Of a DNA stretch of 36,367 bases, positions 14,889-17,839 are shown piece by piece (within the stretch, counting starts at the first letter, position 1; every line of letters starts with the position of its first letter). The notes beneath the pieces were generated by a model. That model searched no databases. It had not been told where the DNA came from and saw nothing but the letters and a program-made list of their open reading frames with translations. The stretch covers positions 1-36,367 of the forward strand of contig CAMDWA010000028.1 in the NCBI GenBank assembly GCA_945877855.1, given 5' to 3'. A program made the position numbers and the translations under genes. Source of the stretch: Thermoflexus hugenholtzii JAD2 (GTDB lineage Bacteria; Chloroflexota; Anaerolineae; J036; Brachytrichaceae).

Positions 14889-14925
14889 CCGCGCTCCGCG
14901 CGGGCAGAGGGGTGCTCCCCTCTGC
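14889..14925 (-). other. Two adjacent GC-rich hairpins 45-80 nt downstream of the NACHT-FGE gene stop (DGR-type post-VR hairpins)
   Basis: ccgcgc-tcc-gcgcgg (14889-14903) and gcagagggg-tgct-cccctctgc (14904-14925; 8-9 bp stem with a 4-nt loop). Confidence 0.5.
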
Positions 14926-14968
14926 ACTCCCCCTTGATACCAGATAACCCAGAGCACCAAAGACCCGA

Positions 14969-17839
14969 TTAACCGGAGGCCCGAGCGGAGAATCGGGGCG
15001 CACTACTCACCAAACGAAAACCGTCGTTGCTGTCACGGATGTCTACATGGGAGTCGTCACGGACCGCCGCCCGCGCATCCGTATCATAGTTATACCACGA
15101 CCCGCCGCGCACGACCCGCTTTTTTATATTTTCTATACTTGGGTCTTCACGTTCCAAATTCGCCTGATATGGATACGCTAAGTAAGCACTGCTCGTCCAT
15201 TCCCACACATTACCGCATAAATCGCTAATGCCTTCAGGCGTTTCGCCCTCGGCAAAGAGACCAATCGGGGTGGTGCGACGAATATGACGCTCGAACGTAT
15301 TGCATTGACTGGCTTCAAATTTTTCGCCATACGCATAGGCACGCGCCCGCCCGCGCCGGTCAGGTTGACCCCGCGCTGCGGCCTCCCACTGCGCTTCGCT
15401 CGGCAAAACATAGCGGCTGCCAATTTGGGCACTCAGCCACAAACCATAGGCCCGCGCCTCATGCCAACATACCCCCACCACCGGCTGGCTGGGCTGGTTA
15501 AAGGCGCTGTCTTCCCAAAACCGCGGCTGCAGCGGCACCTCACCCATCGGAAAGGTTTTAGCCAACCACGCTTCAAAGGCCTCATCACTCCAATTGCGAA
15601 GCGTATGCCAAGCTCGCGCTTGGGTTGAGGTGCAGCGTTGTTGCGCCAATAAATGGTCGATATAGTCCTCCTCCCAGCTTTTTATAGCTTGTCTGCTGCT
15701 TCGCCAGCCCTCGCGCTGGCCTGCCACCGCACCTTCGGGGGTGCGAAAATAGCTTGCGGCTGGCGTATCCCACCAACGGGCATCGCTATAACCACCCGCA
15801 CGCATAAAACAAGCAAATTCGGCATTGGTGACCGGAAACTTACCCATGCGAAATGCATCCAACTTGACGCGGTGCACATGCTTAGCATTATCATACGACT
15901 GGTCTTGGTCGCCCAGCACATAGTCACCGGCCTCAATGGCGATCATGGGCGGCAACAGATATTCATGCCCCAGCTTGCCCATGCGCCGCTCAAAACGCGG
16001 GTCGCCCAGCCCCCCCAACGCCTCACCGGCGGCAATCCGCGCCCGTAGGTCGGCGTTGCGGTCTTGGCTGCGGGCAATCAAGCCTTGCTGCAACTCGTGC
16101 AACAAGGTGGTCGCCAGCTTGGGCTTGACCTGCGCCGCCACCTCGGCCGCCAACGGCAAGTTGAGCGGCATCAGGCTGGCAATCAGCGCATTCGGCTGCT
16201 CACTCAGTTGGGCCGCCAATTTCAGCGTTTCGGCCCAGCCGCTGCGATCGAGCGGCGGCAATGGCTCATAATCTTGGGCGGTTGCCAGCCACTGCGCCAA
16301 ACTCGGCTGCACCGCCTCGGCCTGCCACGCAATCGCCGCCAGCGGCGCATCAAATTGGCGGGCCGCACGGCGGGCCGCAAAAAATTCTTGCAGCAATTGA
16401 TGATAAAACCAAAACTCCTCGCGTTGGCGATCTTCATCTAGCACCGTCAGGGCCACGCCTGCCGTCAGCACCTCGCGCGCCCGTGGGTGTTGCAACACGT
16501 CGCAGGCGCGGGCTTCGTCCAACGTCACCCGCCCACCCGCGCCAGCCAGCCCTTGGCATTGCATGGCATAGGCCAATTCGCTTAGCTTGGGCATGAGCAA
16601 CCCGCGTTCGGGCAAACGCAGGTTGGTTTGGGTATCAACACGGGTGACATCTTCACGGTCACGCAGGTCGAATAGCGCTTCGTCCAGCAGCAGTGCATTC
16701 TTGCCCTCCACCTCGCGGCGGGCGGCGCGCCGCACCAGCTCGGCAAATAACTCGGCGCGGCTAGCCGGAATTTGCCCGGCCCGCTCATTCACCAAATCGC
16801 ACAATATTTTGGCGAAATAAGGCGTGGCATATAACGCAAGTTGCTCAGGCTGGTCCTTGATCTTGCCCCATATCGCAGCGGCGTGTTTGGGCGTATGTTG
16901 CTGCAAAAACGCCTCAAGCTGAACCGCATTGAGCACCTTCAGCGTGATCTGGCGCACATCCACATCGTCTTTCACGCTTAGGGTTTGGCTATAGTCGAGG
17001 CTGCGGCAGGTAAACACGGCGCGATTGCCCGATGGCAGGTCATCGCGCAAAAAATCGCGCCAGCGTTCCACCTGTTTGCCATATACCGCCCCGTTTGGGT
17101 GTGGCATCTCGTTCAGTGCATCCAACAACAGCAACACACACCCTTGCGCCAAAAAATAATCGAGCGGCGGCAGGGTGACATGAAAGCGCTTCAGCGTTTG
17201 CTGCCATTGTTGCGCCAGCCACTCGGCTGGGTCGGGCGCGTCGGGCGTGTATTTGTTGAGTGTAACAAACAATGTCACACTCAGCTGGGGTTGGTCTGCC
17301 GCCAAATACTCGGTCGCGCTTTGCCATTGCAGGCGGCGCAGCAAGGTGGTTTTGCCGCCGCCCGGCACCCCCAGCAGCACCAGCGACGGGTCGGTGATTT
17401 CCGCATCCGCCAGAACCTCGCTCAGGTCTTGGTAATCGTGGTCGCGCTCGGCAAAGCTCAGGCTGGTGTCGGTTTTTTGGCGGTCGAGCAGCCGCATCCG
17501 CACAAAACGGGTGTCAATTTGGCGCTTTTGGGCCAAATCTTTCGCCACTGCGCGATGATATGCCGTCAATGCGGCTTGGGTGGCGGCGGGGTCGGGCGCG
17601 GGTTGGGCATCGGCAAAGCTGATATTCGGGCGGGCCTCACGCACGGCTTGCAGTAATTTGGCATAATCGCCACGCGATTCGCAATGCTTAATCAAGTTCA
17701 TGGCGAACTTGGGTTGGGTATTGCGCTCAAAATCCTCGTCTCCAATCCCCAACTCAAAACACAACAGTTCGAGTTCGTCTGTTTTGAAATGCGCCTTCAA
17801 TGCCGCATAAAGTTGTTGCTGGGTTGGGGTATGGGGCAT
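14969..17839 (-). CDS. STAND NTPase: N-terminal death-like/effector-associated helical domain, NACHT P-loop NTPase, HEAT-like repeats and a C-terminal FGE-sulfatase (SUMF1-like, C-type-lectin fold) domain
   Basis: Walker A [13 protein letters not shown], a NACHT-type Walker B [10 protein letters not shown], and a HEAT-like [16 protein letters not shown] motifs: [37 protein letters not shown]...GFRLV. The N-terminus carries [28 protein letters not shown]. Confidence 0.8.
   Translation of the reverse strand: [956 protein letters not shown]
14995..15112 (-). other. Putative DGR variable region (VR) at the C-terminus of the FGE domain
   Basis: [34 protein letters not shown]. The scaffold positions match the canonical FGE-type template pattern [10 protein letters not shown].A.R......GFR, and the variable codons are mostly NNC/NNT (tat aac tat gat...gac tcc cat gta gac atc cgt gac agc aac gac), as expected for AAC/AAT-derived mutagenesis. 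Confidence 0.5.

What the first reader, a model, noticed from the sequence alone, without database searches (positions are those of the whole stretch)
14889..15112. C-terminus of the NACHT-FGE STAND NTPase has the codon signature of a DGR variable region, with post-VR hairpins but no RT or template repeat in the window
The last ~40 residues of the FGE/C-type-lectin domain read [34 protein letters not shown]. This is the canonical scaffold of FGE-type DGR variable proteins (RGGSW..AR.A.R....GFR). Every 'variable' position carries an NNC/NNT codon (tat, aac, tat, gat, gac, tcc, cat, gac, atc, gac, agc, aac, gac), as expected when template AAC/AAT codons are mutagenised at adenines. Two GC-rich hairpins (ccgcgc-tcc-gcgcgg and gcagagggg-tgct-cccctctgc, a 4-nt loop) lie 45-80 nt downstream of the stop, matching the IMH-plus-hairpin arrangement that follows DGR VRs. 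STAND NTPases with diversified FGE sensor domains are known DGR targets in multicellular bacteria. Here no reverse transcriptase, Avd or TR-like copy is visible in 36 kb, so this would be a remote target of a distant DGR, or an orphaned one.
Basis: partly seen in the sequence, partly recalled or inferred. Interest (0 to 1): 0.8.

Follow-up and report, generated by a model that had tools for sequence, protein, structure and literature searches.

The report
DGR variable region in NACHT-FGE gene
The last ~40 codons of a bacterial NLR-like sensor protein are a real target of a diversity-generating retroelement (targeted hypermutation by reverse transcription); its template and reverse transcriptase lie on another contig of the same metagenome assembly, and this kind of system is already described.

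Summary
Window 14969-17839 (-) encodes a 956-aa EAD7-NACHT-FGE/C-type-lectin protein. Its 3' end (15116..14996, 121 nt) is a DGR variable region (VR).

I inferred the template repeat (TR) from five homologous loci, translated it, and searched the protein database with it. This found a 49-aa ORF called over the real TR, on contigs from the same ENA assemblies as the window contig.

The TR lies in a TR-(avd)-RT cassette next to a 970-aa paralogue of the window gene. The window VR differs from the TR at 13 positions, and all 13 are TR adenines (33 A in 121 nt; P = 6e-9). The 88 non-A positions are identical, although the two paralogues are only 65% identical upstream.

Six further alleles differ from the TR only at adenines, and a seventh does so at 11 of 13 differences. 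A 9-bp, 4-nt-loop hairpin sits 66-78 nt past the VR and is kept across paralogues with different stem sequences.

This gene is therefore a remote (trans) target, not an orphan by the evidence available. That both contigs belong to one genome is inferred, not shown. It is a new member of a known kind (Doré 2024; Kaur 2020; Wu 2018).

The parts
14969..17839 (-). Target gene: a 956-aa EAD7-NACHT-FGE/C-type-lectin STAND NTPase. Walker A is GVPGGGKTT and Walker B is LLLLDALNE.
   Evidence: ORF and translation. Pfam EAD7, NACHT and FGE-sulfatase. The exact protein is P0121, found in ENA and NCBI on a 53,067-bp contig.
14996..15116 (-). Variable region (VR): the 121 nt homologous to the template repeat. 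The A-to-N substitutions in this allele span 15094..15025.
   Evidence: Compared with TR L017 87-207 there are 13 mismatches, all at TR adenines, and 88/88 non-A positions are identical; hypergeometric P = 5.8e-9. blastn of the TR against the window gives this single hit.
14930..14995 (-). Post-VR stretch that is absent from the TR but conserved between the paralogous targets. It holds the last 8 codons, the stop codon (14969-14971) and 39 non-coding nt. I take it as a candidate cis target-recognition (IMH-like) sequence.
   Evidence: It is 56/66 (85%) identical to the paralogue's post-VR stretch, against 65% for the rest of the gene. It is 22/66 identical to the sequence after the TR, which is chance level (alignment). 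The function is inferred.
14904..14925 (-). Hairpin 1: a 9-bp GC-rich stem with a 4-nt loop (sense strand GCAGAGGGG-AGCA-CCCCTCTGC), starting 70 nt after the end of TR homology.
   Evidence: It is predicted in both the MFE and the centroid DNA fold. The same 9-bp/4-nt hairpin sits at the equivalent place in L001 (loop CGCT), L004, L007 (GGCTGGGGG-GACT-CCCCCAGCC) and the RT-adjacent paralogue (GTCTGGGGG-GACT-CCCCCAGAC). It is not followed by a T-run and was not flagged as terminator-like.
14889..14903 (-). Hairpin 2: a 6-bp stem with a 3-nt loop (CCGCGC-GGA-GCGCGG), directly after hairpin 1.
   Evidence: It is conserved only in the orthologues (window, L001, L004) and is absent at the paralogue, so it is probably not part of DGR target recognition.
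17883..18272 (-). Upstream neighbour on the same strand: a 129-aa retropepsin-like aspartyl protease. This is context and a possible operon partner.
   Evidence: Pfam Asp_protease_2, E = 2.8e-8. It is conserved upstream of the orthologues in L001-L003. It has no EAD7 domain.
18256..18507 (-). An 83-aa ORF of unknown function that overlaps the protease start. This is context.
   Evidence: It was called as a gene in L009 and in L001-L003. It has no Pfam match.

Best explanation
The 3' terminal 121 nt of the EAD7-NACHT-FGE gene (15116..14996, minus strand) are a variable region of a diversity-generating retroelement.

The donor is a 121-nt template repeat in a TR-(avd)-RT cassette. That cassette lies on a different contig of the same assembly, directly next to a 970-aa paralogue of the window gene whose own VR it also serves.

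Mechanism, inferred from established DGR biology (Bordetella phage BPP-1):
1. The TR is transcribed.
2. The RT-Avd complex copies it into cDNA, inserting random nucleotides opposite template adenines.
3. The cDNA replaces the VR.

The TR carries eleven AAY codons, plus GAA, ACG, ATC, CAT and GAC. Substitutions therefore recode about 15-17 residues in the RGGSW...GFR ligand-binding segment of the C-type-lectin/FGE fold, while the scaffold residues (ARAA, R, V, R, GFRLV) stay fixed.

The window gene is a trans (non-adjacent) target. It is probably recognised through the conserved post-VR stretch and the 9-bp/4-nt-loop hairpin that it shares with the RT-adjacent paralogue.

By analogy with published proposals, the diversified lectin domain is the ligand or invader sensor of an NLR-like STAND NTPase, and its N-terminal EAD7 adaptor recruits an effector.

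Shown here: TR-VR homology with adenine-only differences; the RT, Avd and TR cassette; several alleles; conserved hairpin geometry. Inferred: that the two contigs are one genome; present-day activity; the roles of the hairpin and post-VR stretch; the sensor function.
For: 1. TR match. The window VR and the TR differ at 13/121 positions, all at TR adenines (33 A), P = 5.8e-9. The same pattern holds for other alleles (for L018):
   - L001: 12/12
   - L005: 17/17
   - L007: 12/12
   - the RT-adjacent paralogue: 16/16
   - L018: 16/16
   - L004: 11/13

2. Homogenisation. The window and the paralogue are 65.0% identical over 2717 upstream nt, but 88/88 at VR non-A positions and 18/33 at VR A positions. 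The window and orthologue L001 are 95.0% identical upstream, 88/88 at non-A positions and 14/33 at A positions.

3. Cassette (L017):
   - The TR is at 87-207 (+).
   - The avd is at 378-743 (-). It matches Pfam bAvd (E = 3.7e-20) and NCBIfam DivGenRetAVD (90.5 bits, cutoff 80).
   - The RT is at 745-1782 (+). It matches RVT_1, and its best PDB hit is 8ub7_A (E = 2.4e-45), with IGNLTSQ aligned to IGSLTSQ and YVDD aligned to YMDD.
   - The RT has 62-71%-identical relatives in Thermoflexales, Accumulibacter, Sedimenticola and others. It has under 40%-identical relatives in phages, including Bordetella phages.

4. Co-occurrence. The window protein P0121 is found in assemblies ERZ27280291 and ERZ27280213. 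The TR cassette is found in ERZ27280291, ERZ27280213 and ERZ27280234. GC content is 52.1% for the window and 52.2% for the cassette contig. In ERZ17175178, a contig of the paralogue locus (coverage 21) and a contig syntenic with the window (coverage 18) co-occur.

5. Hairpin. Its position and geometry are conserved while the stem sequence differs between paralogues.

6. Literature.
   - DGR-diversified CLec/FGE domains on STAND/NACHT+EAD proteins in multicellular bacteria, including trans targets: PMC10907252 and PMC7159879.
   - Non-adjacent targets and the TR-(avd)-RT architecture: PMC5758913.
Against: - The TR cassette and the window lie on different contigs of a metagenome assembly. The RT and the TR-ORF are recorded only from ENA, not from the NCBI copy that holds the window contig. 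Physical linkage in one genome is therefore not shown.
- The window allele is identical in the two samples that carry it, and the paralogue's allele is identical in three. Assembled consensus sequences thus give no sign of turnover within this data set, and read-level heterogeneity could not be examined.
- No IMH*-like similarity continues past the end of TR-VR identity (22/66).
- The hairpin loop (AGCA, CGCT or GACT) does not fit the GRNA consensus, and the hairpin lies 66-78 nt from the VR rather than 4-34 bp.
- No EAD7-bearing effector gene was found in the window or the cassette contig.
Confidence: 0.93

Rival explanations
1. Orphaned or fossil VR. The segment was written by a DGR in the past, but the genome that carries this window no longer has a working TR/RT. 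Either the cassette contig belongs to a co-resident strain, or the element is inactive.
For: - The cassette varies in presence. L005/L006 are 97-99% identical to L015 in both flanks but carry 138 nt in place of the 2572 nt that hold RT, avd and TR, and the junction destroys the target hairpin. L007 also lacks the cassette.
- The RT cluster has a single member, seen on only 3 ENA contigs, and is absent from the NCBI copy.
- VR alleles are identical between the samples that share them.
Against: - There are 0 differences at 88 non-A positions, while orthologues differ by 5% upstream. About 4.4 differences would be expected (0.95^88 is about 0.01), which argues for retrohoming after the window and L001 lineages split.
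- The TR is present in both assemblies that contain the window allele.
- The hairpin and post-VR stretch are intact in the window.
Confidence: 0.1
2. An ordinary FGE-sulfatase/C-type-lectin C-terminus. RGGSW...GFR is simply the family motif, and the NNC codons reflect codon bias.
For: The motif RGGSW..AR.A.R....GFR occurs across all 120 listed homologues and in catalytic FGE/EgtB relatives. The codon argument on its own is weak.
Against: A 121-nt non-coding copy sits next to avd and RT with adenine-only differences. The VR is 100% identical at non-A positions between paralogues that are 65% identical elsewhere.
Confidence: 0.01
3. Gene conversion between the two paralogous NACHT-FGE genes, without reverse transcription, keeps their 3' ends alike.
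For: The conserved stretch runs about 66 nt past the TR homology into non-coding DNA (85% identity), and the TR cannot supply that sequence. Some DNA-level exchange or selection must act there.
Against: Conversion would also homogenise the A positions, yet these are 18/33 identical while non-A positions are 88/88. Every difference from the TR in seven of the eight alleles compared is at an adenine.
Confidence: 0.02
4. This rival concerns the hairpins only. They could be transcription-termination or mRNA-stability structures of the gene rather than DGR target-recognition elements.
For: They lie just after the stop codon. The loop is not GRNA and the distance from the VR exceeds the published 4-34 bp. 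Hairpin 2 is not conserved at the paralogue.
Against: No T-run follows either hairpin and neither was flagged as terminator-like. Hairpin 1 keeps its 9-bp/4-nt geometry and position at both paralogous targets while the stem sequence changes. This is the property shown to matter in BPP-1, where stem structure rather than stem sequence is required.
Confidence: 0.25

Closest known systems
DGR-diversified STAND NTPase (NACHT/nSTAND)-CLec/FGE 'antigen sensor' targets of multicellular bacteria (Doré et al. 2024, PNAS, PMC10907252; e.g. Thiohalocapsa PB-PSB1 DGR3 and DGR6)
   Same: - The target architecture is an EAD adaptor, a STAND NTPase and a C-terminal FGE-type C-type-lectin domain that carries the VR.
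- Targets are duplicated or paralogous.
- Some targets are diversified in trans from a TR and RT elsewhere.
- The hosts are filamentous or aggregate-forming bacteria, including Chloroflexi.
- RT relatives at 62-71% identity occur in Accumulibacter and Thermoflexales.
   Different: - The host lineage here is a Chloroflexota MAG.
- The adaptor is EAD7, not EAD8.
- No EAD-bearing protease effector is encoded nearby.
- Diversification here is shown from alleles across assemblies, not from read-level population data.
Bordetella phage BPP-1 DGR (mtd-avd-TR-brt), the experimental prototype
   Same: - Substitutions between TR and VR occur only at adenines.
- The VR sits at the C-terminus of a C-type-lectin fold.
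- An Avd accessory protein is present.
- The RT has a closely alignable palm motif.
- A GC-rich hairpin with a 4-nt loop lies downstream of the VR.
   Different: - This element is cellular, not phage-borne.
- The target is non-adjacent.
- The avd is inverted between the TR and the RT.
- The hairpin lies 66-78 nt from the VR and its loop is not GRNA.
- No IMH*-like sequence is recognisable after the TR.
Treponema denticola TvpA DGR, and the non-adjacent/remote targets and 'TR-(avd)-RT' architecture in Wu et al. 2018 (PMC5758913)
   Same: The variable protein has an FGE-subtype C-type-lectin fold. One TR serves several targets, some of them away from the cassette. The TR-(avd)-RT gene order with a reverse-strand avd is a catalogued Architecture B variant.
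   Different: The targets here are cytoplasmic NLR-like NTPases, not surface lipoproteins. The distance to the remote target is unknown because the two loci are on separate contigs.
EAD-NTPase biological conflict systems of Kaur, Burroughs, Iyer and Aravind 2020 (PMC7159879)
   Same: The gene combines an EAD7 adaptor, a NACHT NTPase and a hypervariable FGS/FGE domain linked to a DGR, with the TR 'in the same gene neighbourhood or elsewhere in the genome'.
   Different: No cognate EAD7 effector was found in 36 kb. The immediate neighbours are a retropepsin-like protease and an 83-aa ORF, neither with an EAD domain.

Membership tests
DGR variable region / target gene | A template repeat exists that matches the VR except at positions where the TR has adenine. 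| tested here: met
   TR L017 87-207 against window 15116..14996: 13 mismatches, 13 at TR-A, 88/88 non-A positions identical, P = 5.8e-9.
DGR variable region / target gene | A DGR-type reverse transcriptase lies next to the TR. | tested here: met
   L017 745-1782 matches RVT_1. Its best solved-structure hit is 8ub7_A (E = 2.4e-45), a 328-aa chain that I take from memory to be BPP-1 bRT. The IGNLTSQ and YVDD motifs are present. It has homologues in DGR-bearing phages, including Bordetella phages.
DGR variable region / target gene | An accessory variability determinant (Avd) is present. | tested here: met
   L017 378-743 (-) scores 90.5 bits on NCBIfam DivGenRetAVD (cutoff 80) and matches Pfam bAvd at E = 3.7e-20.
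DGR variable region / target gene | The VR lies in the C-terminal part of a C-type-lectin/FGE fold, and TR adenines are concentrated in AAY codons. | tested here: met
   Pfam FGE-sulfatase covers residues 630-944 of 956. The TR reads AAT AAC AAT GAA ACG AAT ... AAC AAC AAC CAT GTA GAC AAC CGT AAC AAC AAC AAC.
DGR variable region / target gene | An IMH at the 3' end of the VR, with a non-identical IMH* at the end of the TR. | tested here: inconclusive
   TR-VR identity ends at the GC-rich GTGCGCCC (window 14996). Beyond it the TR and VR flanks match only 22/66 positions (6/17 at the start), so no IMH/IMH* pair can be delimited.
DGR variable region / target gene | A GC-rich inverted repeat (7-10 bp stem, 4-nt loop, consensus GRNA, 4-34 bp from the VR in phage DGRs) lies downstream of the VR. 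| tested here: inconclusive
   A 9-bp GC-rich stem with a 4-nt loop is present and conserved across paralogues with different stems. However, the loops are AGCA, CGCT or GACT rather than GRNA, and the distance is 66-78 nt.
DGR variable region / target gene | The TR/RT and the target are in the same genome. | not testable with these tools
   They are on different contigs of the same assemblies (ERZ27280291, ERZ27280213), with equal GC content. The RT contig is not recorded from the NCBI copy. Linkage needs long reads or Hi-C.
DGR variable region / target gene | Several alleles exist in nature, and variation is confined to TR-adenine positions. | tested here: met
   There are four orthologue alleles (window, L001, L004, L018) and three paralogue alleles (L017, L005, L007). 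All differences from the TR are at adenines, except two C-to-T changes in L004. Heterogeneity within a sample could not be tested because reads are not available.
EAD-STAND NTPase conflict system (Kaur et al. 2020) | An N-terminal effector-associated domain, a STAND (NACHT) NTPase and a C-terminal sensor domain. | tested here: met
   Pfam EAD7 (E = 1.6e-12), NACHT (E = 1.1e-9) and FGE-sulfatase (E = 4.9e-44). The Walker A and B motifs are visible in the translation.
EAD-STAND NTPase conflict system (Kaur et al. 2020) | A cognate effector carrying the same EAD is encoded nearby. | tested here: not met
   tblastn of both EAD7 domains against the window, L011, L015, L005 and L004 finds only the NACHT-FGE genes themselves. 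The neighbouring ORFs have no EAD hit. A partner elsewhere in the genome is not excluded.
Catalytic formylglycine-generating enzyme / EgtB-type sulfoxide synthase | Catalytic residues of the enzyme, such as the FGE active-site cysteine pair. | not tested
   Only domain-level homology to EgtB and FGE chains was seen (E = 1e-23 to 1e-15), and the NCBIfam enzyme models score far below their cutoffs. From memory, the FGE cysteines fall in the segment that is the VR here, and that segment has no Cys. I did not verify this by alignment.

The most novel reading that the evidence does not exclude
In this DGR clade the target may not be marked by a canonical IMH/IMH* pair. Instead it may be marked by a portable module of about 90 nt: a 66-nt post-VR stretch that extends into non-coding DNA, plus a 9-bp/4-nt-loop hairpin. 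The TR lacks this module entirely, and it is shared by the paralogous sensor genes.

The TR-(avd)-RT cassette itself may be an unstable insertion. It sits exactly at that hairpin and is gained or lost between strains that are 97-99% identical. Natural populations would then be mosaics of strains able to diversify and strains with frozen sensor repertoires.
Probability: 0.2. Interest if true: 0.5.

Novelty: new member of a known kind. Interest (0 to 1): 0.3.

Why it matters
It adds a well-documented case of targeted hypermutation of an NLR-like (NACHT) sensor in a Chloroflexota lineage. The template, RT and Avd are identified, and two paralogous targets are served by one template.

It supports the published view that filamentous or multicellular bacteria diversify the ligand-binding tips of STAND immune-type proteins.

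On the practical side, a remote DGR target can be tied to its template even when the deposited MAG lacks the cassette, by searching protein databases with the translated, inferred TR. Many short database 'SUMF1/EgtB/PvdO family' proteins appear to be TR translations.

The cassette presence/absence polymorphism and a frameshifted VR allele give handles for studying DGR gain, loss and collateral damage in natural populations. None of this changes the current picture of DGRs.

Tried and rejected
- **In-window TR search.** The repeat finder and blastn of the TR against the window find nothing but the VR itself.
- **RT or Avd in the window and its contig.** Pfam on the main ORFs and the precomputed gene tables up to contig position 45.4 kb show none.
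- **N-masked VR/TR pattern scans.** Genome contigs returned only the L007 contig (a MAG titled uncultured Thermoflexus sp.). Metagenome contigs and viral contigs returned nothing, so this lineage is absent from those collections.
- **Flanks of homologues P0001, P0002, P0004 and P0005**. None has an RT.
- **What worked instead.** A protein search with the translated, inferred TR.
- **EAD7 partner effector.** Not found.
- **Rfam on the window and on 13800-15000.** Only one tRNA passed the gathering score. All other hits were sub-threshold miRNA-like hairpin matches on the 131-bp array, which I treat as chance.
- **Terminator reading of the hairpins.** They were not flagged and no T-run follows them.
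- **Literature search for PDB code 8ub7.** No paper held, so its identity as BPP-1 bRT rests on my memory.
- **Scans for the 131-bp repeat unit.** No match in JGI metagenomes. Among the fetched loci it occurs only at this locus.
- **Not done.** Structure prediction and fold search, because the Pfam FGE-sulfatase match and the TR evidence already settle the question and the tool returns no coordinates for mapping the variable residues.

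
Full report
**1. What is at the coordinates**

Window 14969..17839 on the minus strand is a 956-codon ORF. Pfam finds an N-terminal EAD7 adaptor (10-71), a NACHT NTPase (153-283) and an FGE-sulfatase/C-type-lectin domain (630-944). 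The protein ends ...[49 protein letters not shown].

Two adjacent GC-rich hairpins follow the stop codon. Hairpin 1 is at 14904-14925 (9-bp stem, 4-nt loop). Hairpin 2 is at 14889-14903 (6-bp stem, 3-nt loop). Both appear in the MFE and the centroid DNA folds.

The window holds no second copy of the segment. No reverse transcriptase or Avd is found in the window, nor in the source contig up to 45.4 kb.

**2. Is it more than chance?**

RGGSW...GFR is a general FGE-family motif, so the protein motif alone proves nothing. The comparative data are decisive.

The closest database proteins are 93%, 86%, 57% and 57% identical to the window protein. They keep ARAA, R, V(D), R and GFRLV but differ at nearly every residue between these anchors.

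A DNA alignment of the gene ends shows a block running from GGTCGTGCGCGG through the stop codon and about 40 nt beyond. This block is almost invariant even between the 57%-identity homologues, except at the first two bases of NNC/NNT codons.

**3. Finding the template**

From those alleles I inferred the template repeat. Scans of the genome, metagenome and viral collections with an N-masked pattern found only one known homologue contig.

I then translated the inferred TR and used it as a protein query. The top hit was a 49-aa ORF, [49 protein letters not shown] (P0163), which gene callers had predicted over a TR.

P0163 lies on three ENA contigs:
- L015, from ERZ27280213
- L016, from ERZ27280234
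- L017, from ERZ27280291

The window contig (k141_110077, 53,067 bp, a Chloroflexota MAG) comes from ERZ27280291. A second contig carrying the same protein comes from ERZ27280213.

**4. The cassette**

In L017 the layout is as follows:

| Element | Position (strand) | Evidence |
|---|---|---|
| TR | 87-207 (+) | homology to the VR |
| avd | 378-743 (-) | Pfam bAvd E = 3.7e-20; NCBIfam DivGenRetAVD 90.5 bits, cutoff 80 |
| RT | 745-1782 (+) | Pfam RVT_1 |
| 970-aa EAD7-NACHT-FGE paralogue | 2091-5003 (-) | its VR faces the RT |

The RT's best solved-structure match is chain 8ub7_A (E = 2.4e-45). IGNLTSQ aligns to IGSLTSQ and YVDD aligns to YMDD. From memory, 8ub7_A is the BPP-1 bRT, but I could not confirm this.

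RT relatives at 62-71% identity are numerous, with source names such as Thermoflexales, Accumulibacter and Sedimenticola. Phage relatives, including Bordetella phages, are below 40% identity. TR-(avd)-RT with a reverse-strand avd is a catalogued architecture (PMC5758913).

**5. The test**

The window VR (15116..14996, 121 nt) differs from the TR at 13 positions. All 13 are TR adenines (33 A of 121), and the hypergeometric P is 5.8e-9.

The other alleles behave the same way:

| Allele | Differences at TR adenines / total differences |
|---|---|
| L001 | 12/12 |
| L005 | 17/17 |
| L007 | 12/12 |
| RT-adjacent paralogue | 16/16 |
| L018 | 16/16 |
| L004 | 11/13 |

Identity between pairs of genes, split by region:

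| Comparison | Upstream of the VR | VR non-A positions | VR A positions |
|---|---|---|---|
| Window vs paralogue | 65.0% | 88/88 | 18/33 |
| Window vs orthologue L001 | 95.0% | 88/88 | 14/33 |

Plain gene conversion would homogenise the A positions as well, so it does not explain this pattern.

**6. Post-VR elements**

TR-VR identity stops at GTGCGCCC (window 14996). The next 66 nt comprise the last 8 codons, the stop codon and 39 non-coding nt. They are absent from the TR (22/66 matches) but 85% identical between the two paralogous targets.

The 9-bp/4-nt-loop hairpin follows this stretch. Its geometry and position are kept at both paralogues and in several strains, while the stem sequence differs:
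- window: GCAGAGGGG / CCCCTCTGC
- RT-adjacent paralogue: GTCTGGGGG / CCCCCAGAC
- L007: GGCTGGGGG / CCCCCAGCC

In BPP-1 it is the stem structure, not its sequence, that retrohoming requires. Phage DGR hairpins there have 7-10 bp GC-rich stems, 4-nt GRNA loops and lie 4-34 bp from the VR (PMC3240598). Here the loops (AGCA, CGCT, GACT) and the distance (66-78 nt) depart from that pattern.

Neither hairpin is followed by a T-run or flagged as terminator-like. Hairpin 2 is specific to the orthologues. A role for hairpin 1 and the post-VR stretch in target recognition is therefore a reasonable inference, not a demonstration.

**7. Mechanism**

Adenine-specific mutagenic retrohoming from the TR into two paralogous NLR-like genes is the best-supported reading (confidence about 0.93). 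One target is adjacent to the cassette and the other, in the window, is remote.

Diversification recodes about 15-17 residues of the lectin-fold surface segment. By published proposals, this domain senses an invader-derived ligand, the NACHT module oligomerises, and the EAD adaptor recruits an effector (PMC10907252 and PMC7159879). No EAD7 effector is encoded nearby.

**8. Caveats**

- The cassette and the window are on separate contigs, and the RT is recorded from ENA contigs only.
- Alleles are identical among the samples that share them, and reads were not available, so current activity is not shown.
- The orphan reading keeps about 0.1. The main argument against it is zero drift at 88 non-A positions despite 5% divergence between orthologues.

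**9. Comparison and novelty**

The case matches the published class of DGR-diversified STAND-CLec sensors of multicellular bacteria, including trans targets. It also matches catalogued cassette architectures. It is a new member of a known kind, and I score interest at 0.3.

**10. Side observations**

- The cassette is replaced by 138 nt in strains that are 97-99% identical, and the junction lies inside the target hairpin.
- An orthologue allele carries a 14-nt deletion between the GGGTCGTG direct repeats at the 5' end of the VR, which truncates the protein.
- A 131-bp tandem array with a covarying palindrome lies directly downstream of the hairpins.

Noticed in passing
window 13947-14830: A tandem array of 6.7 copies of a 131-132-bp unit lies between the PPK2 gene and the hairpins of the NACHT-FGE gene. 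Each unit holds a 33-nt palindrome in two alternating versions (AGATGCGCCGCACC...GGTGCGGCGCATCT and AGATGCCCAGCAAC...GTTGCTGGGCATCT). Three pairs covary. No Rfam family matches and there is no match in JGI metagenomes. Among the fetched loci it occurs only at this locus, including the orthologue loci L018/L019. It is absent in L004. Function unknown.
   Followed up: partly
L005 6657-6794 versus L015 6435-9006 (reverse complement 4938-7509): The whole TR-(avd)-RT cassette, plus a 70-aa ORF and a thioredoxin-like ORF (2572 nt), is replaced by 138 nt in contigs that are 97-99% identical in both flanks. The junction removes the 3' arm of the target hairpin. L007 also lacks the cassette but keeps the hairpin. 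Heptamer-repeat palindromes (GAGTCAT/GAGTCAC) flank the site.
   Followed up: partly
L018 2828-2935 (also L019, L020): This orthologue allele has a 14-nt deletion between the direct repeats GGGTCGTG...GGGTCGTG at the 5' end of the VR. It shifts the frame and truncates the protein to 912 aa (...RVVGLR*). The rest of the VR still differs from the TR only at adenines (16/16). It may be an aberrant 5' cDNA integration product.
   Followed up: partly
protein database hits P0163-P0282: More than a hundred 40-90-aa database 'proteins' have Asn-rich RGGSWNNN...NRNNNNGFR sequences. Many are annotated 'SUMF1/EgtB/PvdO family nonheme iron enzyme' or 'hypothetical protein'. The one I traced (P0163) is an ORF called over a DGR template repeat, and the others look like the same annotation artefact. 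That artefact can be used to locate TRs.
   Followed up: partly
L015 6521-6960 (-): A thioredoxin-like ORF next to the cassette has a signal-peptide-like N-terminus and an in-frame TGA where the first Cys of the CxxC motif is expected (...FHADT*AACQQMAP...). It is either a pseudogene or a candidate UxxC selenoprotein. The gene caller kept only the 73-aa C-terminal part.
   Followed up: no
window 26956-27094, 32388-32512, 34710-34832: Three intergenic copies of a palindromic element of about 105-123 nt, each with 35-36-bp near-perfect inverted repeats separated by 3 nt (MITE/REP-like).
   Followed up: no
window 1384-1426, 4505-4623, 24965-25061, 25987-26079: Short tandem heptanucleotide repeats lie in intergenic regions, some forming inverted arrays (CCACACC, GAGCCTT/TCATGGC, ACTTTGC, ATTAATG). 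Similar heptamer arrays flank the paralogue locus.
   Followed up: no
window 12729-13826 (-): The PPK2 (polyphosphate kinase 2) gene appears split. The 248-aa ORF matches only profile positions 6-150 of 229, and the gene table of L009 lists two consecutive PPK2 fragments (234 aa and 99 aa). This is either a frameshift or an assembly error.
   Followed up: no
window 17883-18507 (-): An 83-aa ORF and a 129-aa retropepsin-like aspartyl protease sit directly upstream of the NACHT-FGE gene on the same strand, and they are conserved with it in L001-L003. They are absent at the paralogue locus. Neither has an EAD domain. A possible effector role was not tested.
   Followed up: partly
window 34877-34950 (-): One tRNA gene, the only Rfam match in the window above the gathering score.
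   Followed up: no
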